Assembly: GCA_016183565.1 (NCBI GenBank)
Contig: JACPEJ010000001.1
Coordinates: forward strand, 226,577-290,576
Reading direction: 5' to 3'
DNA length: 64,000 nucleotides
Source of the DNA: Candidatus Blackburnbacteria bacterium
GTDB lineage: Bacteria; Patescibacteriota; Microgenomatia; UBA8517; UBA10165
Shown: positions 4,081-51,148 of the stretch, piece by piece
How positions within the stretch are numbered: the first letter of the stretch is position 1
Layout: the number at the start of each line of letters is the position of its first letter
Program-made: the position numbers and the translations under genes
The notes under the pieces: generated by a model
Databases searched by the model: none
Seen by the model: the letters and a program-made list of their open reading frames with translations, nothing else
Told to the model about the DNA's origin: nothing

Positions 4081-4246
4081 ATCCTCTGGACTAGTTGGAG
4101 CTAGTCCGTTTCTTGTCAGCCTGATCTTAGCATTCGTCTTCAGGTACTATTCGTACACGACTCATGCTGCGATCTTGGGCGGACTGCGAAAACTTGTATA
4201 CAAGTTTTCTTGTCTTTTTACGAGAGACACGTTATAATTTAGGAAA

Positions 4247-9522: not shown

Positions 9523-9885
9523 ATGTTAATAAAAGCAGAACAAAAATACATAAGGATGAGTCCACGCAAGATAAGGTTAGTGGTAGATTCTGTGCGGGGT
9601 ATTAAGTTGCCTCAGCAGGTTTTGCTTTATCTTGAGCATGTTAACAAGAGGGCGGCAGGAGTGGTCTCGAAGTTAATCAAACAGGCGATTGCGAATGCTA
9701 CCAACAACCTAAGTTTGCCAGCTGATAAGCTCACGATTAAAGAGTTGCAGGTGGGTGGTGGGCCTGTGTATAAAAGAGGACAACCTGTGTCTCGTGGCCG
9801 CTTTCACCCTGTTTTAAAGCGTACTAGCCATGTGAGGATAGTTCTTGAATCTAAAGAGAGAGGAGGGAAAAACGGGAAACGTTAA
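9523..9885 (+). CDS. rplV: 50S ribosomal protein L22
   Basis: IRMSPRKIRLVVDSVRG; position in the cluster. Confidence 0.9.
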   Translation: MLIKAEQKYIRMSPRKIRLVVDSVRGIKLPQQVLLYLEHVNKRAAGVVSKLIKQAIANATNNLSLPADKLTIKELQVGGGPVYKRGQPVSRGRFHPVLKRTSHVRIVLESKERGGKNGKR

Positions 9886-9941
9886 ACGCAAAACGGCAGA
9901 CGAGAAATGTTAAACGTTTCGCGTTTTGCGTATCACATTGT

Positions 9942-11230: not shown

Positions 11231-11532
11231 AAGTTTTTATAGGAAAAGTAAAAAGCGTGAGTTTGACAAAAACTGTAATTGTGGAAGTTGAGCGTTTTCG
11301 TGTTCATCCAATCTACGAGAAACGCACAAGAAGCACAAAGAGATATCCTGTACATGATGAGATAGGTGTAAAAGAGCGCGATGTGGTGGAGTTTAAAGAG
11401 ACAAGGCCTATATCAAAGACCAAGAGGTGGATGATAACACGAGTGTTGGGGAAGAGAAAAGAGGAAGAACGGGAAACGTTAAACGCAAAACGACAGATGG
11501 GAAACAAACGCAAAGTTGCCACTTCGCGGTAA
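11227..11532 (+). CDS. rpsQ: 30S ribosomal protein S17 (C-terminal extension encoded by a repeat element)
   Basis: GKVKSVSLTKTVIVEVERFRVHPIYEKR. Confidence 0.88.
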   Translation: MKVFIGKVKSVSLTKTVIVEVERFRVHPIYEKRTRSTKRYPVHDEIGVKERDVVEFKETRPISKTKRWMITRVLGKRKEEERETLNAKRQMGNKRKVATSR

Positions 11533-15480: not shown

Positions 15481-16757
15481 GGGCGGTTTCGAACCTTCTT
15501 CGCGCATGGTCTATACCTGAACTTCGTAGGAAACTTATTTTTACCGGAGTTATCTTTGTTATTTTTCGCTTGGTTGCACATATTCCGGCTTCTGGAATTG
15601 ACCGAGAGGCTTTACGGTTGTTATTTGCACAGAGTCAATTTTTGTCCTTGTTGGATATTTTTTCGGGAGGGACTCTTGCAAACTTTTCTATTTTGGCCCT
15701 TGGCCTTAATCCTTATATTAATGCTTCCATAATCTTGCAGCTTTTAACGTTGGTTTTTCCTCAACTTGAGGAATTATCAAAAGAAGGAGAAGCTGGGCGG
15801 GCAAAAATCAATCAATATACGAGGTTTTTGACTGTTCCCCTTGCTGCGCTTCAGTCGATTGGTATGTATTTCTTGCTTAATAGTCAGAATGTTGTTTCGT
15901 CTTTAGGTGTTGTTCCTTTGGTTGTTTTGATGGTAACAATGACTGCAGGAACGGTTTTTGTAGTTTGGTTGGGAGAGCTTATTACGGAGTATGGAATAGG
16001 GAATGGTATATCTATTCTTATTTTTGCCGGCATTGTTGGTAGGTTGCCTGTAGTTTTCAGTCAAACTTTTTTGACGGTGACTGCTCAAGATCTTTTTCCG
16101 ATAATAACTTTTGCTCTTGTTTCAGTAATTGTGATAGCAGGTGTTGTTTTTATGAATGAAGCGACAAGGCGTATTCCAGTTCAGTATGCTAGGCGTGCTA
16201 GCCGAGGTGGTGTGGTTGCACAACAAACTCACTTGCCATTGCGCCTTAATCAGGCTGGTGTCATTCCAATTATTTTTGCAATCTCTCTTGTTTTGGCTCC
16301 TTCTATGTTTGGTCAATTTTTGTCACGTGTTCCGAATCCTAATATTTCTTGGTTTGCTTCCAATTTGTCCAGCTGGTTTAGTCCTGGTTCTGTTGTTTAT
16401 AATGTTGTCTACTTTTTGTTGGTTGTTGGTTTTACTTTCTTCTACACAGCTTTTATTTTCAATCCTACAAAGATTGCAGATGAGATTAAAAAGCACGGGG
16501 GATTTGTTCCAGGTATAAGGCCGGGTGGGGCAACCAGTCACTATTTAAATTTTGTTTTGAATAGGATAACTTTGGTTGGTGCTTTGTTTTTGGGGTTGAT
16601 TGCAGTACTTCCTTCTGTTGTTCAGTCTTTTACTCAAGTTGCTGCGTTAGCAATTGGTGGTACTGGAATTTTAATAGTTGTCTCGGTTGTATTAGAAACT
16701 ACGAAGAAAATTGAGGCTCAGTTGGCAATGCGGAACTACGATAAATTTCTTACTTAA
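15477..16757 (+). CDS. secY: preprotein translocase SecY
   Basis: 426 aa, 10 TM helices, follows rplO. Confidence 0.93.
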
Positions 16758-16758
16758 G

Positions 16759-17298
16759 ATGAACATTGTATTTTTAGGTCCTCAAGGATCTGGCAAAAGT
16801 ACACAGGCCGAACTTGTAAGTCAGCACTTGAAACTTCCACTTTTAGTTATTGGGGATTTTTTGCGATCTGAGGCTAGAAAAGAAACGTCTGTGGGGAGGC
16901 GTATTGCCCAACTTATCAAAAGAGGGGAACTTATAGAAGATACTTTGCTTGTGTCGCTTCTAAAGAAGGAATTGGTAAAAGAGAAGTACAAGGGTGGTCT
17001 AATTCTTGATGGGGCACCACGGACGTTGAAACAAGCATATCTTTTTGAACCCGTTTTGTCAGTTGATCAAGTGGTTTATCTTTCTATCCCCGACTTGGTT
17101 GCTTACGAGCGCCTCTTCAAGAGAGGCAGGTTTGATGACACTCCGGAGCTTATTAAACGGCGTTTGGAGATTTACCACGATGAAACGGATCCAGTACTGT
17201 CTTATTACAAAAAAGCGGGTGTGCTTACAACGATTGATGGGATACCGGATGTACAGACTATTTTTAAGGAGATAGTCTCAAAAGCGAGATTGCGTTAG
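16759..17298 (+). CDS. adk: adenylate kinase
   Basis: MNIVFLGPQGSGKSTQ P-loop; ...ILDGAPRTLKQA. Confidence 0.88.
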   Translation: MNIVFLGPQGSGKSTQAELVSQHLKLPLLVIGDFLRSEARKETSVGRRIAQLIKRGELIEDTLLVSLLKKELVKEKYKGGLILDGAPRTLKQAYLFEPVLSVDQVVYLSIPDLVAYERLFKRGRFDDTPELIKRRLEIYHDETDPVLSYYKKAGVLTTIDGIPDVQTIFKEIVSKARLR

Positions 17299-17321
17299 TG
17301 TGGGGACAAATTTTGTTTGAA

Positions 17322-17490
17322 AGCGGGGCCTGTCGCGCGCTCGTCCTCGGTCCGTATGTCCTCACTAGCGCTGCGGTCGCTCGACGGGACTCCTCGTTCG
17401 AGTCTGAGCCGATTCGGCCTGAGCTCACGGTCGAAGGACCTGAGGGCTCATCCCTCAGAGTCGAAGACCTCCCATACTGACACCCGCCTT
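17322..17490 (+). repeat. GC-rich structured repeat element, copy 1 (intergenic, ends in a T-run)
   Basis: ~165 nt at >60% GC in a ~40% GC genome; a near-identical copy lies at 49946-50078 inside recJ; internal palindromes (ctgagggctcatccctcag). Confidence 0.8.
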
Positions 17491-17507
17491 TTTTTATTAG
17501 TTAGCTT

Positions 17508-18257
17508 ATGGTTATACCTAAAACTCTTGAAGAGATTGAAATTGTGAGAGAAGGTGGGCAAAGGCTTGCTCGGATTAAGGACGAGTTGCGGCAGATGGTT
17601 TGTCCTTCTGTTACTCCGATTGAAATTGAAAGAAGGGCGGAGTGTCTTATATTGGAGGCTGGGGGCCAGCCTTCGTTTAAGATGGTGCGAGGTTATCGAT
17701 GGGCTACTTGTATTAATATAAACGAGGGGGTGGTTCACGGAATTCCGGGGAAGGTTCCTTTTAAGGAGGGTGATATTGTGACGGTTGATGTAGGTATTTT
17801 TTATAAAGGTTTTCACTCGGATAGTGCTTTTACTTTGGTTGTAGGGCAACCGTCAAAAGAGCGGCAGTCTTTTCTTGGGGCTGGTAAGGAGGCTTTGCGA
17901 AGGTCGATTAAAGAAGCGAAGCAGGGTAACAGAATAGCAGATATCTCAAGAACTATTCAAGAAGTTTTAGAGAAAAGGGGCTATTCGCCAGTTTACGAGT
18001 TGACGGGTCACGGTATTGGGAGACAACTGCATGAAGATCCTCAGATTCCATGTTTTTTAGAAGGAGATCCTTGTAGGTCTCCCCTTATTCCGGAAGGAGC
18101 GGTTCTTGCGATAGAGGTGATTTATACTCAAGGGTCTCCCCGATTGGTGCTATCCGACGATGGATGGACAATAAGCACAAAAGATGGTAAAATTGGCGCA
18201 GTATTTGAGGAAACTGTTGCAGTTGTACATGGGCAACCCCAGATACTAACTGCCTAA
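17508..18257 (+). CDS. map: methionine aminopeptidase type I
   Basis: 249 aa, pita-bread fold motifs (VVHGIPG, GHGIGR). Confidence 0.9.
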   Translation: MVIPKTLEEIEIVREGGQRLARIKDELRQMVCPSVTPIEIERRAECLILEAGGQPSFKMVRGYRWATCININEGVVHGIPGKVPFKEGDIVTVDVGIFYKGFHSDSAFTLVVGQPSKERQSFLGAGKEALRRSIKEAKQGNRIADISRTIQEVLEKRGYSPVYELTGHGIGRQLHEDPQIPCFLEGDPCRSPLIPEGAVLAIEVIYTQGSPRLVLSDDGWTISTKDGKIGAVFEETVAVVHGQPQILTA

Positions 18258-20308: not shown

Positions 20309-21265
20309 TTGGGTAAAACAAATCAGAATTTCTCTTCAACTTCGTATAAACCGTTATTGTTTCAATTAGAACAAAAAGAAACACAAGAAACCTACGGTGA
20401 ATTTGTAATAGAACCTTTGGAACAAGGATATGGGCACACATTGGGTACTTCTTTGCGTCGAGTTTTGCTAACTGGTCTTTCTGGTGCGGCAATAACACAG
20501 GTTAAAATTGTTGGCATGAAGCATCAATTTGGTCCTGTAAAGGGTGTAAAAGAAGATGGGGTGGATTTACTACTTAATCTTAAGAAGATTAGGGTTTCTT
20601 ATTCAGGCGAGAAGCCTGTTAAACTTACACTCTCTGCGAAAGGAAAGGGTCAGGTTTTAGCAGGAGATATAAAAACACCAGCTGATGTTCAGATAGCGAA
20701 TCCAGATTTTGTTATTGCGACTTTGGCAGATGATAAAAGCAAGCTTGAATTAGAGCTTCAAGTAGAATCCGGTGTTGGCTACTCTCCTTCGGAGGATCGT
20801 AAGACTAATATGGTTGGACAGATTCCATTAGATGCTGACTTTTCGCCACTACGTCGTGTGAATTACAAAGTTGAAGAAACACGAGTTGGGCGTCTTACGA
20901 ATTATGATAAGTTGACTTTGCAGGTGTGGACGGATGGTTCAGTGAATGCTTCAGATGCTGTTAAAAAAGCGTCTGAAATACTGTTAGGTTATTTTAACCA
21001 TCTTGTTTCTCCTGTGGTTAAAAATAGTTCTGCTGTAAAAACTAAAAATTTGGAAACTTCAGTAACAAGTAAGTTTTCAGTTGAAGAGCTAAGTCTTCCT
21101 ACAAGGATTGTAAATGCTTTGATTGGAGCTTCGTATGAAACAGTTGAAGATATTGTTCGTTCGAACAAGACAGAACTTGCCAAGATCAGAAATTTGGGAG
21201 AAAAGTCAGTTAAAATAATAGAAGCAGCTCTTGGAGAAAAAGGTATTTCTTGGAAAGGAGAGTAG
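20309..21265 (+). CDS. rpoA: DNA-directed RNA polymerase subunit alpha (TTG start, strong SD taaggaggtg)
   Basis: EPLEQGYGHTLGTSLRRVLL; 318 aa with a C-terminal domain. Confidence 0.92.
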   Translation: MGKTNQNFSSTSYKPLLFQLEQKETQETYGEFVIEPLEQGYGHTLGTSLRRVLLTGLSGAAITQVKIVGMKHQFGPVKGVKEDGVDLLLNLKKIRVSYSGEKPVKLTLSAKGKGQVLAGDIKTPADVQIANPDFVIATLADDKSKLELELQVESGVGYSPSEDRKTNMVGQIPLDADFSPLRRVNYKVEETRVGRLTNYDKLTLQVWTDGSVNASDAVKKASEILLGYFNHLVSPVVKNSSAVKTKNLETSVTSKFSVEELSLPTRIVNALIGASYETVEDIVRSNKTELAKIRNLGEKSVKIIEAALGEKGISWKGE

Positions 21266-31737: not shown

Positions 31738-31809
31738 CGTAACAGATCATTCCCTTCGGGAATGGAAAACAAATCAGAATTTGTCTTCAACTGCGTATAA
31801 AAATGTAGT

Positions 31810-32820
31810 ATGCCTAAAACAATTGAGATTTCCCATAGAACAATAATTTTTACGGTGTTTTTTTTGCTTTCGCTTTGGGTTTTGTTTCAGATAAGAACAA
31901 TTTTGATAGGTTTGTTTGTGGCAGTTCTTCTTGCAACAGCTCTTTCTCCTATTGTTGATCGTTTATCCAGTTTCAGAATACCACGAGGAATTGCAATTTT
32001 AGTAGCGTATGTTTTTTTCTTGGGGGCATTGGGTTGGGGATTGTCAACAATTGTTGCGCCTTTGGTTGAGCAAACGACTAACTTAGTAAATAGGTTACCA
32101 ATGTTGTTTGATGATTTAGGCCGCTGGCTTGAGGGTGTAGGAATTCAGGGTGTTGACAGTAGTGCAATCGCAAGTCAGGTCTCCCAGCTTGGGGCAATTC
32201 CGGCTGATATTGTTCGCTTTATTGTTTTTATTTTCTCTAATTTAGTTACGGTTATAGCTGTCTTGGTTATTACCTTTTACATGCTTGTTGAGAAGAAAAA
32301 TTTGGATAATTATTTGCTTATTCTTTTAGGGACCGAGAGAGAGCAGAAGGCCAAGTCTTTTATAGATAAATTGGAAGTACGCTTGGGAGGTTGGGTTAGA
32401 GGAGAGCTTTTGTTGATGGTCATAATTGGTGTTATGACTTACATAGGGTTAAGGCTTCTTGGTATACCCTATGCTCTTCCTTTAGCGATACTAGCGGGAT
32501 TTTTGGAGATATTGCCTAACATTGGTCCTATTATCTCAGCGATTCCAGGTGTTCTTCTTGCTCTTACAATATCACCTATCATGGCTTTGGCCACAGGCTC
32601 TTTGTACTTTTTAATTCAACAGCTTGAAAATAGTTTGATAGTACCTAAGGTTATGCAAAAGGCTGCTGGAGTAAATCCGTTGGTTATAATTGTTTCCTTG
32701 GCGGTTGGGTTTGAACTATCAGGGGCTATGGGGGCGATTCTTGCGGTACCTATAATTATTGTTGTACATGTGGTAGCAGTTGAACTTTTGGGCTTCCGGA
32801 TGCAGTATACAGAGAAGTGA
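31810..32820 (+). CDS. AI-2E family transporter (UPF0118/PerM-like permease)
   Basis: 8 TM helices; characteristic ...LAILAGFLEILPNIGPIISAIPGVLLAL... Confidence 0.75.
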   Translation: MPKTIEISHRTIIFTVFFLLSLWVLFQIRTILIGLFVAVLLATALSPIVDRLSSFRIPRGIAILVAYVFFLGALGWGLSTIVAPLVEQTTNLVNRLPMLFDDLGRWLEGVGIQGVDSSAIASQVSQLGAIPADIVRFIVFIFSNLVTVIAVLVITFYMLVEKKNLDNYLLILLGTEREQKAKSFIDKLEVRLGGWVRGELLLMVIIGVMTYIGLRLLGIPYALPLAILAGFLEILPNIGPIISAIPGVLLALTISPIMALATGSLYFLIQQLENSLIVPKVMQKAAGVNPLVIIVSLAVGFELSGAMGAILAVPIIIVVHVVAVELLGFRMQYTEK

Positions 32821-32854
32821 GATTTGTGCTGCGCATACGTACGCTTGCCATGCA

Positions 32855-32886
32855 GCAAAAAAGCCGCATTGCTGCGGCTTTTTTGC
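32855..32886. terminator. bidirectional intrinsic terminator shared by the AI-2E gene (+) and rnpB (-)
   Basis: aaaaaa-gccgcattgctgcggc-tttttt. Confidence 0.7.
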
Positions 32887-33334
32887 ACTAGGAATGAGTA
32901 AGCCAGGTTCTGTTTCCGCTAGTTGGCGGAGGCGATAATCTATCTAACGCCCTCAAACTTTGATGCTTCCGGAAGCTGGTAATAGCCTGCCTAGACTTAA
33001 TGTCTTAGCAGGGCTGGCGCATCGTTCGGAGGTTGCAGCGGGGAGGATTGCCTCTTTTCACCCTCTGCCCTGTTAGCTTTAGGCTAACGAGATGAGTCGT
33101 TGTCTCTGTGGCTCTAACTGGCGGTTTGCCTTCGACTATTTCGACAAACTCAGTACAAGTTCGCTCAGGCAACCCTGAGCTTGCCGAAGGGTTCCCGCCT
33201 CGGCTTACGCCGAGCACCCTGCTTCCTGCTGCCTGGACTTTCCTCCCCGCCATTCGCTTCCCACTTGGCTTTGGGTTCTATTCGAACGCGCCTCGTGGTG
33301 CGCTTCGGCGGGGTAATCGCCCTGTTTCCTAGGT
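32886..33334 (-). ncRNA. rnpB: RNase P RNA (bacterial type; ~449 nt)
   Basis: on the minus strand: GGAGGAAAGTCCAGGC (5' strand of P4) ... AGGGTGAAA ... ACAGAACCTGGCTTAC (3' strand of P4), with compensatory A:U in P4; P1 pairing cctaggaa/ttcctag; terminator follows. Confidence 0.8.
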
Positions 33335-33388
33335 ATGCGTATCATACCAAAAGTAGCCTTAAAAGTCAATTACTACAGGTGAGTCTTG

Positions 33389-33418
33389 ACAAATAGGTTT
33401 GCTTTCACAATACTGGGT
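33389..33418 (+). promoter_or_regulatory. sigma70-like promoter TTGACA-17-AATACT upstream of leader motif copy C
   Basis: seen in sequence. Confidence 0.4.
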
Positions 33419-33550
33419 TAGGTTTAGGTGAATCTGGCTCGCCCAATCTTACCTCTCGCCTTACCTACTATTCGTAGCGCGGCGCGAGGAGCGATTTAGG
33501 TCGAGCTGCGCCAAGTCAGACTTGGCTTGAAAGGAGGTGAGGGAAACAAA

Positions 33551-35415: not shown

Positions 35416-35985
35416 GTGCAACTTTCTTTAAGTCGAACATTGGGACAGATGAGGCTTGTTTTAAAGGACCCAGAAAGTGTTGGGCCTTTCACTGTTTATG
35501 AGGTTTTTCGCGATGATTCGGATGGTTGGGCAAACAAGACTGTAATTTATCCTGGTAAGTTGGGTGAGGAATATACAAAGACGTTTGGACATTATCATCC
35601 GGAGGGTGCGCCGGATGAAGTATATCGTGTGATTGAAGGGGAAGGTATTCTGGAGCTTCAGAAAAAACATTTGGGGAATGATCAATTGGTTTCTTTCCAG
35701 GTAGACGAAGTTTTATTGATAAAAGCCAAATCAGGGGATGAGATTGTTATTACCCCAGAATATGGTCATTCGTGGTCTAATGTAGGTAGTACTCCTTTGA
35801 TTCTTCTTGATGATTGGGAGGTTGGTCATACAGGAGCTGATTATGAGCAGATTGGGAAATTTCATGGTATGGCTTACTATCTTGTAGAACTAAACGGTGG
35901 GCCTAGAGCTTTTCCTAACCCAAATTACGAGAATCTTCCGGAGCCTGTTTTTTTGACAGCAAAGGAGTTTAAAAGACCCTCCTGA
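35416..35985 (+). CDS. cupin-type glucose-6-phosphate isomerase-like protein (cPGI family)
   Basis: TFGHYHPEGAPDEVYRVIEGEG and EYGHSW are consistent with the His/Glu metal site of cupin PGIs; start codon uncertain. Confidence 0.5.
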   Translation: MQLSLSRTLGQMRLVLKDPESVGPFTVYEVFRDDSDGWANKTVIYPGKLGEEYTKTFGHYHPEGAPDEVYRVIEGEGILELQKKHLGNDQLVSFQVDEVLLIKAKSGDEIVITPEYGHSWSNVGSTPLILLDDWEVGHTGADYEQIGKFHGMAYYLVELNGGPRAFPNPNYENLPEPVFLTAKEFKRPS

Positions 35986-36052
35986 TCTTACCATTCGCCT
36001 TCAGGTACTATTCGTACACGGCTCATGGAGCGATCTTAGGAGGGCAAGGGAG

Positions 36053-45581: not shown

Positions 45582-46450
45582 ACTGGATGAAGTTTCGCTG
45601 GTTTTATTTTTTGGTTTCAGGAATTGTGTTGGCTTTTTCTGTATATGCAATAGCTACCTGGGGTTTTCGCCCCTCAATAGATTTTACTGGGGGGAGTGTA
45701 GTGGAATACAGATTTCAGGGTCGTGTTGAAGCATCAAAAGTATCGGAAGATATTGTAGCGCAAGGTTATGAACTAAAGGAAGTTAAGAGTATAAGTGCTA
45801 ATAGTTTAGAACTGAAATTTGTGCCAACCTTTGAGCAAAGGAATGCGGAGGATTTAAGTGCAATTCTTGCTCAATCTTTAAAAGAAAAACCTGAGATTGT
45901 AAGATTTGAGACTGTTGGTCCGGCCTTGTCTACAGAGATTCTTGAAAAAACATATATAGCAATAGCAATTGCGGCAACAGGAATTCTTCTTTGGGTTGCG
46001 TGGCAATTTAAAAGTATTCAGTTCGGGATTTCTGCGATTCTTGCGACGCTACACGATACGATAATTTTGCTTGGTGTGTTTGCAGTACTTGGGCACTACA
46101 AGGGTGTTGAGGTTGATATACTTTTTGTTACAGCAGTTTTAACAACTTTGTCCTTCTCGGTTCACGATACTATTGTTGTCTATGATCGAATCCGAGAGTC
46201 GAAAAGAAGATTTAGTAGTGTTTCTTTTGTAGATCTTTCTAATAAAGCGGTCACAGAGACAATGGGTCGTTCGCTTAACAATTCTTTGACTATTATTTTC
46301 ATGCTTCTGGCGCTTTTTTTGATGGGAGGAGTAACTATAAAATGGTTTGTTGCAGCACTTCTTGTTGGTACAATATCAGGTACTTACTCATCTCCATTTG
46401 TCGCAGTCCCGCTTTTGGTGATGTGGGATTGGATTAGAGGTAGGTTCTAG
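45578..46450 (+). CDS. secF: protein translocase subunit SecF
   Basis: 290 aa, SecF topology; overlaps secD by 4 nt. Confidence 0.88.
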   Translation: MNWMKFRWFYFLVSGIVLAFSVYAIATWGFRPSIDFTGGSVVEYRFQGRVEASKVSEDIVAQGYELKEVKSISANSLELKFVPTFEQRNAEDLSAILAQSLKEKPEIVRFETVGPALSTEILEKTYIAIAIAATGILLWVAWQFKSIQFGISAILATLHDTIILLGVFAVLGHYKGVEVDILFVTAVLTTLSFSVHDTIVVYDRIRESKRRFSSVSFVDLSNKAVTETMGRSLNNSLTIIFMLLALFLMGGVTIKWFVAALLVGTISGTYSSPFVAVPLLVMWDWIRGRF

Positions 46451-46551
46451 TGGAGCTTCATTGGAAATTATTTTACAGTATACAAGCTTTGAATAAGGCT
46501 ACTTGACAAAGGCTCTTGGTTGTAGTAGTGTATATACATTGTATATATTAG

Positions 46552-47319: not shown

Positions 47320-47430
47320 CAATGGTTTGTTGCAGCACTTCTTGTTGGTACAGTGTCAGGTACTTACTCATCTCCATTTGTCGCAGTCCCGCTTTTGGTG
47401 ATGTGGGAGAAAATTAAGAGGAGGGTTTAG
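47320..47430 (+). pseudogene. duplicated 3'-terminal fragment of secF (~110 nt, 2 mismatches over the first 92 nt)
   Basis: aatggtttgttgcagcacttcttgttggtaca...gtcccgcttttggtgatgtggga also occurs at 46331-46440 as the genuine secF end. Confidence 0.85.
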
Positions 47431-47668
47431 CAAATGTTTTTTAGTGATTTTGTTGCAGTTTATTCAATTTTATACTTTAAGGTAATCTGAACACTACACT
47501 CCTACGTAGGAGTGTAGTGTCTAATACGCTCATACATATGGATATTATTAAAATTATTGGTGTTATGTTTCGAAACATTGGAACTTAAAACTCAGGATTT
47601 AGAACATGGAGTAGGAATATTTGATTGGTCATTGATATCATGATTCGAATCATGATATCAAATATGAT

Positions 47669-49381: not shown

Positions 49382-51148
49382 ATGGAAAGCAGTAAGCAGG
49401 TAGAAAAGGTTATCAGCACACTTTTGGTCAATCGTGGGGTAGTGACAAAAAAACAGAGGGAAGAGTTTTTTAATCCTCCACATCCCACAAAGATTACTTT
49501 TCGCCAGGTAGGTATTGATAAGAAGCAGGTTGCGCGGGCTGTTGCAAGGGTTAAAAAAGCGATTGACGAGAAAGAGAAAATAATTGTTTATGGAGATTAT
49601 GATGTTGATGGGATTTGTGCAGCTGCAATTTTGTGGGAAACCTTAAAAAGTTTGGGCGCAGATGTTTTGCCATATATACCAAGTAGATTTACGGAAGGGT
49701 ATGGCTTAAACATAGAGTCTATACAGAAACTCAAAGAAGAAGATCCTGCCATTGGTCTTATTATTACTGTAGATAACGGTATTGTTGCTCACGAAAAGAT
49801 TGATTTCGCGAAGGGGTTGGGAGTGGATGTAGTTATTACTGATCATCATCAGCCGGCGGAAACCTTACCATCTGCGCATGCGATTGTACATACCACACAA
49901 GTATCTGGTAGTGCTGTTGCTTGGTTTTTTGCGTGTGAACTTGTTGCCGCGGGGCCTGTCGGGAGCTCGTCCTCGGCCCGTATATCCTCGCTTAACGCTG
50001 CGGGCGCTCGGCGGGACTCCTCGTTCGAGTCTGAGCCTGAGGGCTCATCCCTCAGAGTCGAAGACCTCCGCTCCCGACACCCGCTTGAGTTGCTCGCTGA
50101 CCATCTGGGGCTTGCAGCTCTTGGGACAGTTGCAGATATTTTACCTTTAGTTGGGTATAATCGGTCACTTGTTTATCATGGCCTCGAGATTTTAAGAAAA
50201 ACTAAACGTCCTGGGGTGGTGGCCATATGTCGCGAGGCAGGGATAAAACAGGAAGAAATTGACATTTTCCATATCGGCTTTATGATTGCCCCTCGACTTA
50301 ATGCGGCGGGTCGTATGGAACACGCTATCAATAGCTTGAGACTTTTGTGTACTACACAAAAAGCGCGGGCGGAGATGTTGGCCCTTGCTTTGGGGCAAGC
50401 AAATAGAAAAAGACAAGAAAGTACAGAGCTTGCTGTAAAGCATATTGAAACTAATTACTCGTCCCAGTGGACTCAAAATGGTCTGCCTAAGGTTTTGTTC
50501 GCTTACCATAGTTCTTACGAGGAGGGTGTAGTCGGGATTGTTGCGGGGAGATTGGTCGAGAAGTATTATAGGCCAGCAATAGTGGTTTCTTATGGCGAAG
50601 CTTTATCAAAAGCATCAGCAAGGTCAATTGCTGGTATCGATATTATTGATACTATAAGAAAGGCTGGTGAAGGAATTTTACTAGGTGCGGGGGGGCACCC
50701 TATGGCAGCTGGTTTTAGTTTAGAGAGTAAGAAGATAAGTGAGTTTGCCGCTCGTTTAGATGAAGTGATGTTGGATGTTCCGGAAGGGGTTTTTAAAAGA
50801 GAGTTTCGAGTGGACTGTGACCTTCTATTTGCTGGTATTTCAGAAGAGCTTTATGGGGTTATTGTTAAGTTTGCTCCTTTTGGTTTTGGTAATCCTCAGC
50901 CGACATTTCGCACATCAGAAGTCTTTGTACAGGATGCAAGGTTGCTAGGAAAACAAAATGAGCATCTCAAGCTTTTTGTTGCTCAAGAAAAAGAGGGGAA
51001 AGGGTATGAGGCTATTGGTTTTAGAATGGGTGAACTATATTCAAGGTTGGATTCTTGTAATCCTGTAACTATTATATATTCGCTTGAGGAGGATCAGTGG
51101 AATGGGAGGAAGAAACTTCAATTGCGGCTGCGGCAGGTTGAATTATAG
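49382..51148 (+). CDS. recJ: single-stranded-DNA-specific exonuclease RecJ, carrying an in-frame ~43-codon GC-rich insert
   Basis: DHH motifs (YGDYDVDG, DHH), DHHA1 with GGHPMAAG; insert GPVGSSSSARISSLNAAGARRDSSFESEPEGSSLRVEDLRSRHP. Confidence 0.88.
   Translation: MESSKQVEKVISTLLVNRGVVTKKQREEFFNPPHPTKITFRQVGIDKKQVARAVARVKKAIDEKEKIIVYGDYDVDGICAAAILWETLKSLGADVLPYIPSRFTEGYGLNIESIQKLKEEDPAIGLIITVDNGIVAHEKIDFAKGLGVDVVITDHHQPAETLPSAHAIVHTTQVSGSAVAWFFACELVAAGPVGSSSSARISSLNAAGARRDSSFESEPEGSSLRVEDLRSRHPLELLADHLGLAALGTVADILPLVGYNRSLVYHGLEILRKTKRPGVVAICREAGIKQEEIDIFHIGFMIAPRLNAAGRMEHAINSLRLLCTTQKARAEMLALALGQANRKRQESTELAVKHIETNYSSQWTQNGLPKVLFAYHSSYEEGVVGIVAGRLVEKYYRPAIVVSYGEALSKASARSIAGIDIIDTIRKAGEGILLGAGGHPMAAGFSLESKKISEFAARLDEVMLDVPEGVFKREFRVDCDLLFAGISEELYGVIVKFAPFGFGNPQPTFRTSEVFVQDARLLGKQNEHLKLFVAQEKEGKGYEAIGFRMGELYSRLDSCNPVTIIYSLEEDQWNGRKKLQLRLRQVEL
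49946..50078 (+). repeat. GC-rich structured repeat element, copy 2 (in-frame inside recJ)
   Basis: ~90% identical to 17322-17490 except for a 30-nt internal deletion. Confidence 0.8.

What the first reader, a model, noticed from the sequence alone, without database searches (positions are those of the whole stretch)
49946..50078. GC-rich structured mini-element inserted in-frame inside recJ, with a second copy in the adk-map intergenic region
A ~130-165 nt element (>60% GC against a ~40% GC genome) occurs at 17322-17490, between adk and map, where it ends in a T-run. It occurs again at 49946-50078, where it is translated in-frame as a ~43-aa insertion (GPVGSSSSARISSLNAAGARRDSSFESEPEGSSLRVEDLRSRHP) in the loop between the DHH core and the helix preceding DHHA1 of RecJ. 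Other RecJ proteins have only ~10 residues there. The two copies are ~90% identical apart from a 30-nt indel and contain nested palindromes (ctgagggctcatccctcag). Both copies are open in the same frame. This looks like a MITE-like mobile element, or a small structured RNA that can invade coding sequence without breaking the frame.
Basis: seen in the sequence. Interest (0 to 1): 0.65.

Follow-up and report, generated by a model that had tools for sequence, protein, structure and literature searches.

The report
In-frame palindromic repeat of CPR bacteria
Two GC-rich repeats in this Candidatus Blackburnbacteria genome, one translated as a floppy 46-residue loop inside the DNA-repair enzyme RecJ, are local versions of a small palindromic DNA element whose 45-base core is almost identical across many phyla of ultra-small (CPR) bacteria and sits, in frame, inside many of their housekeeping genes.

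Summary
Two copies (17323-17489, between adk and map; 49949-50086, codons 190-235 of recJ) are 88% identical apart from a 30-nt indel. They are the window's strongest GC islands, and shuffles give 0 chance matches.

Both are derived insertions. Relatives have adk and map overlapping by 8 nt. A RecJ 88% identical to that of a second carrier genome keeps only the element's termini.

The 138-nt element is composite. A Blackburnbacteria-specific shell surrounds a 45-nt core, CTC(A/G)TTCGAGTCTGAGCCTGAGGGCTCATCCCTCAGAGTCGAAGA. That core occurs nearly unchanged in at least 150 distinct places in Saccharibacteria, Berkelbacteria, Microgenomates, Parcubacteria, Peribacteria and others.

About 10-20% of copies lie inside housekeeping genes of 16 Pfam-confirmed kinds, including aminoacyl-tRNA synthetases, UvrD, LepA, Tgt, RF2 and PolA. 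They are always in one of the three stop-free frames.

A filled/empty pair in tgt shows an exact 45-nt insertion with no target duplication, at the centre of a pre-existing repeat. AlphaFold models the RecJ insert as a disordered loop.

Best reading: a selfish, non-autonomous palindromic element that behaves like Rickettsia palindromic elements. No Rfam family, no mobilising enzyme and no publication was found.

The parts
49949..50086 (+). Composite element inside recJ (138 nt = 46 codons, RecJ residues 190-235), translated in frame as AGPVGSSSSARISSLNAAGARRDSSFESEPEGSSLRVEDLRSRHPL
   Evidence: AlphaFold2 gives pLDDT below 50 for residues 193-224 only. The alignment to solved RecJ structures breaks here.
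49949..50019 (+). 5' shell of the recJ copy (71 nt, Blackburnbacteria-specific). It begins GCGGGGCCTGTCGGGAGC, which pairs with the 3' end of the element.
   Evidence: It is 66% identical to the same-site copy in L001, about the same as the host gene's 60% nt identity.
50020..50065 (+). Universal core CTCGTTCGAGTCTGAGCCTGAGGGCTCATCCCTCAGAGTCGAAGAC. The mobile unit is 45 nt; one boundary base is ambiguous. It forms a 12-bp imperfect palindrome, TTCGAGTCTGAG/CTCAGAGTCGAA, around a 15-nt loop.
   Evidence: nhmmer E=7.5e-19
50066..50086 (+). 3' shell of the recJ copy (CTCCGCTCCCGACACCCGCTT), complementary to the 5' terminus
17323..17489 (+). Composite element in the adk-map spacer (167 nt). It is the same shell and core, with a 30-nt module nested in the core loop.
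   Evidence: Relatives have no spacer here.
17393..17468 (+). Universal core of the intergenic copy, interrupted by the nested module
   Evidence: nhmmer E=1e-13
17411..17440 (+). Nested 30-nt module GATTCGGCCTGAGCTCACGGTCGAAGGACC (its boundary is ambiguous by 1 nt). The same module sits at the same position in a Saccharibacteria copy (L012) and a Levybacteria copy (L023).
17490..17496 (+). T-run directly after the intergenic copy. A terminator role is possible but not supported by the scan.
49382..51148 (+). Host gene recJ (588 aa; DHH, DHHA1 and RecJ_OB domains)
16711..17298 (+). adk, upstream neighbour of the intergenic copy. In relatives its stop overlaps the map start.
17508..18257 (+). 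map (type I methionyl aminopeptidase), downstream neighbour of the intergenic copy

Best explanation
The two window sequences are copies of a selfish, non-autonomous palindromic DNA element. Its conserved mobile unit is a 45-nt (15-codon) hairpin-forming core that is spread across CPR/Patescibacteria. In Blackburnbacteria the core is carried inside a longer lineage-specific palindromic shell, giving a 138-nt (46-codon) composite. Inferred mechanism: the core, and in this lineage perhaps the whole composite, is inserted without target-site duplication, preferentially at the centre of pre-existing local repeats or hairpins, including the loop of its own hairpin (nesting). The enzyme is supplied in trans and is unidentified. 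CPR genomes have little intergenic DNA, so many insertions land in genes. Those that survive are the ones that keep the frame, contain no stop codon, and fall in surface loops. There the element is simply translated as a hydrophilic, disordered peptide, here a 46-residue loop between the DHH core and the next helix of RecJ. Copies can later be lost by internal deletion, leaving only their termini. What is shown: repetition, derived insertion at both window sites, presence/absence with a footprint, an exact 45-nt insertion without duplication, and in-frame residence in many unrelated genes in three frames. What is inferred: active transposition, the mobilising enzyme, horizontal spread between phyla, and that the peptide is made and is functionally neutral.
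For: Repetition beyond chance. Both window sites are derived. In two other Blackburnbacteria genomes adk and map overlap by 8 nt, whereas the window has a 209-nt spacer built around the element. Most RecJ orthologs lack the insert. Presence/absence with a footprint: L001 and L002 RecJ are 88% identical; L001 carries the element, while L002 keeps only 24 nt and 9 nt of its two termini. A second genome (L001) also has one genic and one intergenic copy. That gives 152 distinct copies, 140 of them the plain core. 47 of 50 plain cores are one of two 46-mers. In a set selected on the 5' half only, the 3' half is identical in 72 of 121 copies and differs by 1-2 nt in most of the rest. Clean filled/empty pair: Tgt of L051 against L071 (about 80% identical proteins) differs by exactly 45 nt of core inserted between two pre-existing tandem 13-mers, with no duplication. 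The core sits at centres of local symmetry: flank-flank duplex energy is -11.05 against -9.05 +/- 0.22 in permutations, and shared direct words average 5.67 against 4.47 +/- 0.12. Nested modules lie in the core's hairpin loop. Pfam-confirmed coding hosts are RecJ (two different positions), UvrD, a PD-(D/E)XK nuclease-helicase, a class-V aminotransferase, a T2SSE ATPase, GlyRS, AlaRS, ThrRS, LeuRS, another class-I aaRS, Tgt (two copies), LepA, an HhH-GPD glycosylase, RF2, PurA and PolA. All three stop-free frames are used (SFESEPEGSSLRVED, HSSLSLRAHPSESKT, antisense SSTLRDEPSGSDSNE). Copies tightly wedged between ORFs separate different complete genes and never split one gene. The RecJ model is confident (pLDDT 87, pTM 0.83) except for residues 193-224 inside the insert, which are coil. 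Independent Logan assemblies of the same strain break inside the core at window 17456, as expected at a repeat. Precedent for in-frame palindromic repeats: RPEs (PMC10969869, PMC3184786).
Against: No transposase or other protein family is enriched next to the copies. The two Y1_Tnp genes seen nearby have their own unrelated hairpins. No autonomous parent element was found. Exact-core copy number looks low: often one per genome, about 10 in the richest, and 2 in this 64-kb window. The core is far more conserved than junk DNA should be. Between the two Blackburnbacteria genomes the core and 3' shell are nearly identical, while the 5' shell (66%) has diverged like the host gene (60%), and this holds even between copies within one genome. 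That requires recent spread, gene conversion or a sequence-specific constraint, and none of these was demonstrated. No insertion polymorphism between near-identical strains was observed. The core was not found in phage, plasmid or IMG/VR collections, so no vector for horizontal transfer is known. Translation of the insert is inferred from frame logic, not observed.
Confidence: 0.7

Rival explanations
1. The core is a functional cis-element kept by selection, either a DNA site or an RNA hairpin bound by a conserved CPR protein (for example a processing, termination, segregation or regulatory signal). Its copies are recruited signals rather than selfish insertions.
For: The core is extremely conserved across phyla while its shells diverge, even between copies in one genome. 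Copy number per genome is low. The hairpin folds better than shuffles (DNA z -2.65; composites z -3 to -4). The window's intergenic copy lies between two genes and is followed by a T-run.
Against: Copies occur in both orientations and three reading frames inside unrelated housekeeping genes, where a signal would be disruptive. Intergenic copies have no preferred orientation relative to neighbours (12 co-oriented, 9 anti-oriented). Contexts vary: between operon genes, between divergent genes, next to tRNA genes. There is no Rfam family and the terminator scan makes no call. The core is invariant, so covariation cannot be assessed.
Confidence: 0.13
2. The recJ insertion is an adaptive protein module. 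The 46-residue loop was retained because it gives RecJ a new interaction or regulatory surface in Blackburnbacteria.
For: The same insert sits in the same loop of RecJ in two genomes whose RecJ proteins are only 61% identical. The frame is intact and the catalytic motifs are conserved.
Against: The same nucleotides lie intergenically in the same genomes. In other proteins they are read in other frames, giving unrelated peptides. A close relative has lost the interior without disrupting the gene. The loop is predicted to be disordered. This loop is variable in length and sequence in all orthologs.
Confidence: 0.05
3. The element is removed after transcription or translation (intron-like or intein-like), so it never appears in the mature protein.
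For: CPR bacteria are known for introns in rRNA genes (my own knowledge). One host gene here (UvrD in L048) also carries a real intein.
Against: The core matches no intron or ribozyme family in Rfam. At 45 nt it cannot encode an intein. Every genic copy is stop-free, and the measured insert lengths (45, 138 nt, and a separate 21-nt palindrome) are multiples of three. No copy splits a gene in a stop-containing frame. A spliced element would not be under those constraints.
Confidence: 0.04
4. Assembly artefact or chimeric joining at a repeat.
For: Short-read assemblies do break at this repeat.
Against: recJ sequence continues in frame on both sides. An independent MAG shows the same arrangement. 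Copies with unique flanks come from many laboratories' assemblies and from raw-run Logan contigs.
Confidence: 0.01

Closest known systems
Rickettsia palindromic elements (RPE; Ogata et al. 2000, as summarised in PMC10969869 and PMC3184786)
   Same: They are short palindromic repeats found both between genes and fused in frame inside many unrelated housekeeping genes of a small-genome bacterium. They are translated as extra peptide segments judged compatible with the fold. No transposase of their own is known.
   Different: RPEs are about 105-150 bp and confined to Rickettsia. Here the conserved unit is 45 nt, nearly invariant across many CPR phyla, modular and nested with lineage-specific shells, and apparently low in copy number per genome. 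Sequence similarity to RPE families was not tested.
Bacterial MITEs with in-frame copies (ERIC, Correia/CREE, Coxiella QMITEs, pneumococcal BOX/RUP; PMC10969869, PMC5896051)
   Same: They are small and non-autonomous, have terminal inverted repeats, come as variants with or without an internal segment, and are occasionally fused in frame with ORFs.
   Different: MITEs normally make target-site duplications and share ends with a known IS. The one clean filled/empty pair here has no duplication, and no parent IS was found. The 45-nt core is smaller than most MITEs.
REP/BIME elements and their RAYT (Y1) transposases (PMC3733652)
   Same: They are short GC-rich imperfect palindromes in composite mosaic arrangements, insert without target duplication, and are presumed to be mobilised in trans through hairpin recognition.
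   Different: REPs are extragenic, carry a GTAG or CGTC head, occur in tens to hundreds of copies, and flank a RAYT gene. The core has no such head (read directly from the sequence). About 10-20% of copies are genic. The Y1_Tnp genes seen nearby are flanked by different hairpins.
Insertion into palindrome loops, as for IS1397/ISKpn1 in BIME palindromic units (my own knowledge, not checked here)
   Same: The preferred target is the centre or loop of a pre-existing palindromic repeat.
   Different: Those are full insertion sequences with transposases. Here the inserted piece is a 45-nt hairpin with no coding capacity.
Mitochondrial GC clusters and double-hairpin elements (my own knowledge); coding palindromes in Nematomorpha mitochondrial genes (PMC6649704); PARCELs (PMC2996958)
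   Same: They are GC-rich or palindromic mini-elements that reside inside protein-coding genes and are read through.
   Different: They occur in different genetic systems and have unrelated sequences. None is shared across phyla of free-standing bacteria.

Membership tests
Rickettsia palindromic elements (RPE) | Palindromic repeat of about 100-150 bp found in many copies, inside genes as well as between them | tested here: met
   The composite is 138/167 nt and palindromic. It has genic and intergenic copies. However, the conserved unit is only 45 nt.
Rickettsia palindromic elements (RPE) | Genic copies are in frame, stop-free and located where the fold tolerates them | tested here: met
Rickettsia palindromic elements (RPE) | Sequence homology to one of the RPE families; host genus Rickettsia | not tested
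   No RPE consensus was available in the tools. The hosts here are CPR bacteria. So this works like an RPE but is not filed as a member.
MITE | Terminal inverted repeats | tested here: met
   The core ends TTCGAGTCTGAG/CTCAGAGTCGAA match at 11 of 12 positions. The composite ends GCGGGGCCTGTCGGGAGC/GCTCCCGACACCCGC pair.
MITE | Target-site duplication flanking the insertion | tested here: not met
   The L051/L071 pair shows an exact 45-nt insertion with no duplication. The AT-rich direct repeats next to some copies already exist in the empty site. This rests on one clean pair only.
MITE | Ends shared with an autonomous IS that encodes the transposase | tested here: inconclusive
   No transposase is enriched within about 4-8 kb of 66 copies. 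Whole genomes could not be searched.
REP / RAYT system | Conserved GTAG or CGTC tetranucleotide at the head of the palindrome | tested here: not met
   The core begins CTC(A/G)TTCG and its reverse strand begins GTCTTCGA. Definition taken from PMC3733652.
REP / RAYT system | A RAYT (Y1 transposase) gene flanked by the same repeats | tested here: not met
   Y1_Tnp genes in L006 and L013 are flanked by unrelated hairpins. None was found in the window by tblastn.
REP / RAYT system | Extragenic location | tested here: not met
   14 of 71 copies in one set and 12 of 121 in the other lie inside ORFs.
Described structured RNA family (Rfam) | Match to a covariance model | tested here: not met
   There are 0 hits at gathering score in the window. 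At E<=10 on 49850-50200 the only hit is an irrelevant one outside the element.
Intein / self-splicing intron | Splicing domains or a ribozyme core | tested here: not met
   A 45-138-nt insert has no room for an intein. No intron family matches. The frame and stop constraints point to translation.

The most novel reading that the evidence does not exclude
The 45-nt core is an active, horizontally spreading mobile DNA specific to CPR/Patescibacteria. It inserts without target duplication into hairpin loops and repeat centres by a mechanism not yet described for so small an element, possibly a trans-acting ssDNA-hairpin (HUH/Y1-type) or guide-directed recombinase. Together with similar mini-palindromes, such as the 21-nt CCTGCC...GGCAGG unit, it is a main source of the many lineage-specific loops that make CPR housekeeping proteins so variable in length.
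Probability: 0.3. Interest if true: 0.8.

Novelty: new variant of a known kind. Interest (0 to 1): 0.62.

Why it matters
[quoted passage not shown] First, a single 45-nt sequence is shared almost unchanged by phyla whose proteins are only about 50-60% identical. That makes it a ready marker of DNA exchange, or of a shared constraint, among uncultivated episymbionts. Second, it inserts cleanly, without target duplication, at the centre of existing repeats, which points to an unidentified mobilisation mechanism. Third, it visibly adds disordered loops to essential enzymes such as aminoacyl-tRNA synthetases, RecJ, UvrD, LepA, RF2 and PolA, so it is a tractable case of new protein sequence arising from non-coding DNA in streamlined genomes. 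On the practical side, the repeat breaks short-read assemblies. It also inflates and distorts alignments of marker proteins used for CPR phylogeny, so recognising and masking it would help.

Tried and rejected
(1) Rfam at gathering score on the whole window, and at E<=10 on the element, found nothing relevant.

(2) Intrinsic terminator role for the intergenic copy. The scan does not call it, and its fold is no better than shuffles.

(3) Target-site duplications. AT-rich 9-13-bp direct repeats flank 9 of 69 copies, but the empty Tgt site shows they pre-exist as tandem repeats, so I rejected them as duplications.

(4) A mobilising enzyme. All-against-all clustering of ORFs around 66 copies shows only housekeeping families recurring. 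Y1_Tnp/RAYT-like genes in L006 and L013 looked promising but are flanked by unrelated hairpins.

(5) Orientation bias. In the first set all 14 confirmed genic copies were sense, and the 3 antisense 'ORF' cases lay upstream of the true starts. This did not replicate in the independent metagenome set, which had 6 sense and 6 antisense with real genes, so I dropped it.

(6) 'Designed' open frames. Three stop-free frames out of six is about the chance expectation at this GC content (my estimate).

(7) Full-length Blackburnbacteria-type copies in JGI metagenomes: 0 hits for the shell-core junction.

(8) Phage, plasmid and IMG/VR carriers: none.

(9) Intron-like split genes: none among the tightly wedged copies.

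(10) Exact deletion mechanism in L002. A 7-bp direct repeat (TCCCGCC) lies 102 nt apart in L001, but L002 lacks 105 nt, so this is suggestive only.

(11) A look-up of the window's own RecJ in the contig index found no record, so the rest of the 686-kb genome could not be scanned.
Full report
OBSERVATION. The sequence is as described. The refined limits are 17323-17489 (167 nt, between adk 16711-17298 and map 17508-18257) and 49949-50086 (138 nt, codons 190-235 of the recJ ORF 49382-51148). Two sub-motifs of 25 and 33 nt each occur exactly twice in the window, with 0 matches in 100 shuffles. Profile searches find no third copy. The copies are 88% identical over 137 aligned nt and differ by one 30-nt indel. 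They are 65% and 67% GC in a 41.6% GC window and are its two strongest GC islands. The recJ copy folds into a closed rod whose ends pair (GCGGGGCCTGTCGGGAGC with GCTCCCGACACCCGC), with z = -4.0 and -3.6 on the two strands. The intergenic copy has diverged ends and folds no better than its shuffles. The intergenic copy has a 1-nt indel, so although it is stop-free from its first base it reads the core in a different frame. The T-run after it is not called a terminator by the scan.

ORGANISM AND BOTH SITES ARE DERIVED. The RecJ protein is 100% identical to one from a Candidatus Blackburnbacteria MAG (CPR, Microgenomates) on a 686-kb contig. In an alignment of 19 orthologs the loop holding the insert is short and variable. 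Solved RecJ structures have 32 residues where this protein has 69. AlphaFold2 gives a confident fold (pLDDT 87, pTM 0.83) in which the only segment below pLDDT 50 is residues 193-224, inside the insert and modelled as coil. One other ortholog, from a different Blackburnbacteria MAG (L001; RecJ 61% identical), has the same element in the same loop. Its close relative (L002; 88% identical to L001) keeps only 24 nt and 9 nt of the element's two termini and lacks the 105 nt between them. At the other site, two Blackburnbacteria genomes have adk and map overlapping by 8 nt, whereas the window has a 209-nt spacer made mostly of the element. Independent Logan assemblies of the same strain are 100% identical over 3.3 kb and all start inside the core at window 17456, which is what a repeat does to an assembly graph.

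THE ELEMENT IS COMPOSITE. L001 also has an intergenic copy. Copies within a genome are more alike (87-88%) than the same-site recJ copies between genomes (80%). The 5' shell has diverged about as much as the host gene (66% against 60% nt identity), while the core and most of the 3' shell are unchanged. A scan of one genome per species for a 25-mer of the core gave 66 stretches. By their record titles these come from Saccharibacteria, Berkelbacteria, Curtiss- and Levybacteria, Doudna-, Komeili-, Uhr-, Falkow- and Colwellbacteria, Paceibacterota, Peribacteria and Altimarinota, plus a few MAGs labelled outside the CPR. Those last labels are unverified. All but one of them have CPR-like GC. In that set the unselected half is identical in 72 of 121 copies and differs by 1-2 nt in most of the rest. 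Altogether there are 152 distinct copies. Of these, 140 are the plain core, 9 have extra modules nested in the core, and only the four copies from the two Blackburnbacteria genomes have the long shell. The shell-core junction has no match in JGI metagenomes. The window's 30-nt 'indel' is one such nested module, and the same module at the same position occurs in a Saccharibacteria and a Levybacteria copy. The core is a 12-bp imperfect palindrome (TTCGAGTCTGAG/CTCAGAGTCGAA) around a 15-nt loop, and the nested modules sit in that loop.

HOW IT INSERTS. The tgt gene of a Saccharibacteria MAG (L051, 527 aa) carries two cores. Against an ortholog about 80% identical (L071), the empty site reads CAAATTTCTAATT|CCAAATTTCTAATT|TCTAAC. 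The filled site has exactly 45 nt of core at the first bar and a separate 21-nt GC palindrome at the second. Neither has any target duplication, and both are multiples of three. So the AT-rich direct repeats seen next to some copies are pre-existing tandem repeats and not duplications. Across 146 copies the two flanks are more complementary to each other (-11.05 against -9.05 +/- 0.22 kcal/mol) and share longer direct words (5.67 against 4.47 +/- 0.12) than permuted flank pairs. The core therefore tends to sit at the centre of local hairpins or repeats. No protein family is enriched near the copies. Two nearby Y1_Tnp genes have unrelated hairpins of their own. No phage, plasmid or viral contig carries the core. 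The mobilising mechanism is therefore unknown.

IN GENES. Pfam confirms copies inside RecJ (at two different positions in different lineages), UvrD (twice), a PD-(D/E)XK nuclease-helicase, a class-V aminotransferase, a T2SSE ATPase, GlyRS, AlaRS, ThrRS, LeuRS, another class-I synthetase, Tgt (twice), LepA, an HhH-GPD glycosylase, RF2, PurA and PolA. All three stop-free frames are used: SFESEPEGSSLRVED, HSSLSLRAHPSESKT and antisense SSTLRDEPSGSDSNE. An apparent sense-only bias in the first set (14:0) did not replicate in the second (6:6). Intergenic copies have no orientation preference. Copies tightly wedged between ORFs always separate two different complete genes, for example atpA|atpG and PPDK|pyruvate kinase, and never split one gene. 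So genic copies are seen only where the frame stays open. That fits translation plus purifying selection and argues against removal by splicing. Only 10-20% of copies are genic. From my own knowledge these genomes are roughly 90% coding (not measured here), so most genic insertions are evidently purged.

INTERPRETATION. The best-supported reading (confidence 0.7) is a selfish, non-autonomous palindromic element that works like the Rickettsia palindromic elements, the known case of repeats fused in frame into many housekeeping genes (PMC10969869, PMC3184786). It is not filed as an RPE, MITE or REP. RPE homology was not testable. The MITE hallmark of target duplication was tested and not met. 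The REP hallmarks (GTAG/CGTC head, extragenic location, flanking RAYT) were not met.

OPEN PUZZLE AND RIVALS. The main unresolved point is the near-invariance of the core across phyla and between diverged copies. It needs recent horizontal spread, gene conversion or a sequence-specific constraint. The main rival, a selected cis-element, gets 0.13. It is weakened by the use of both orientations and three frames inside unrelated genes and by the lack of any Rfam match. An adaptive RecJ module (0.05), an intron- or intein-like element (0.04) and an artefact (0.01) are unlikely, for the reasons given under each rival.

NOVELTY. Four full-text searches pairing CPR, Patescibacteria or Saccharibacteria with repeat-element terms, and one search for the element's nucleotide and peptide strings, found no description of this element in CPR bacteria. 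I rate it a new variant of a known kind. The behaviour is RPE-like, but the element has a 45-nt cross-phylum core, nested loop-targeted insertion without duplication, and low copy number.

Noticed in passing
window 4120-4182, 33251-33313, ~33440-33500, 35981-36043: A second repeat family (~63 nt; consensus ..CCTGATCTTACCATTCGCCTTCAGGTACTATTCGTACACGGCTCATGGAGCGATCTTAGG..) has four intergenic copies. One lies just upstream of tuf and one just upstream of the ORF starting at 33527. There is no Rfam hit at gathering score. It could be a leader or promoter-associated motif, or another repeat.
   Followed up: partly
window 32820-33527: A gene-free stretch of about 700 nt contains a GC island (33140-33339, up to 68% GC). 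A segment at 33130-33200 is built from the same TTCGAC / CTCAG / CTGAGC motifs as the element's shells and modules but lacks the universal core. No tRNA, tmRNA or Rfam family was found there.
   Followed up: partly
window 46341-46482 and 47321-47462; 9866-9907 and 11463-11504; 20315-20350 and 31766-31801: These are other two-copy direct repeats (142 nt at 82%, 42 nt at 90%, 36 nt at 94%), reported by the repeat finder and not examined.
   Followed up: no
RecJ orthologs P0039, P0040, P0004, P0002 (alignment A2, columns ~655-695): A different in-frame insert sits near the C-terminus (WPARNAS...SVAGGNGKKKL, up to about 40 residues in P0040). P0051 and P0084 have odd extra segments as well. These suggest other element families in CPR RecJ genes.
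   Followed up: no
L051:1360-2949 (tgt of a Saccharibacteria MAG) against L071:51-1253: A separate 21-nt GC palindrome, CCTGCCTCGCCGGCAGGCGGG (translated PASPAGG), is inserted without duplication next to the core. The protein has at least four insert regions, and CPR Tgt orthologs range from 363 to 527 aa.
   Followed up: partly
L048:86-3487 (- strand): This UvrD helicase carries both the 45-nt core in frame and a genuine intein (Pfam Intein_splicing).
   Followed up: no
L013:5051-5759 and L006:390-1062: These IS200-like Y1 transposase (PF01797) genes are each flanked by their own hairpin or tandem repeats, i.e. REP/RAYT-like arrangements in CPR genomes. They are unrelated in sequence to the core.
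   Followed up: partly
L065:~2020-2115 (lepA): A partial copy of the 3' half of the core (CTCATCCCTCAGAGTCGAAGAC) lies 6 nt upstream of a complete core, and both are read in frame. It looks like a partial duplication or a second, truncated insertion.
   Followed up: no
window 17299-17507 compared with L194:1501-1508 and L195:1501-1508: In relatives the adk stop and the map start overlap, which allows translational coupling. The element insertion has separated them by 209 nt in this genome.
   Followed up: yes
L086:1483-3243: A RecJ from another lineage carries the core in antisense orientation at a different position, between the DHH strand ending ...VLNP and the following helix. RecJ has therefore been hit independently more than once.
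   Followed up: partly
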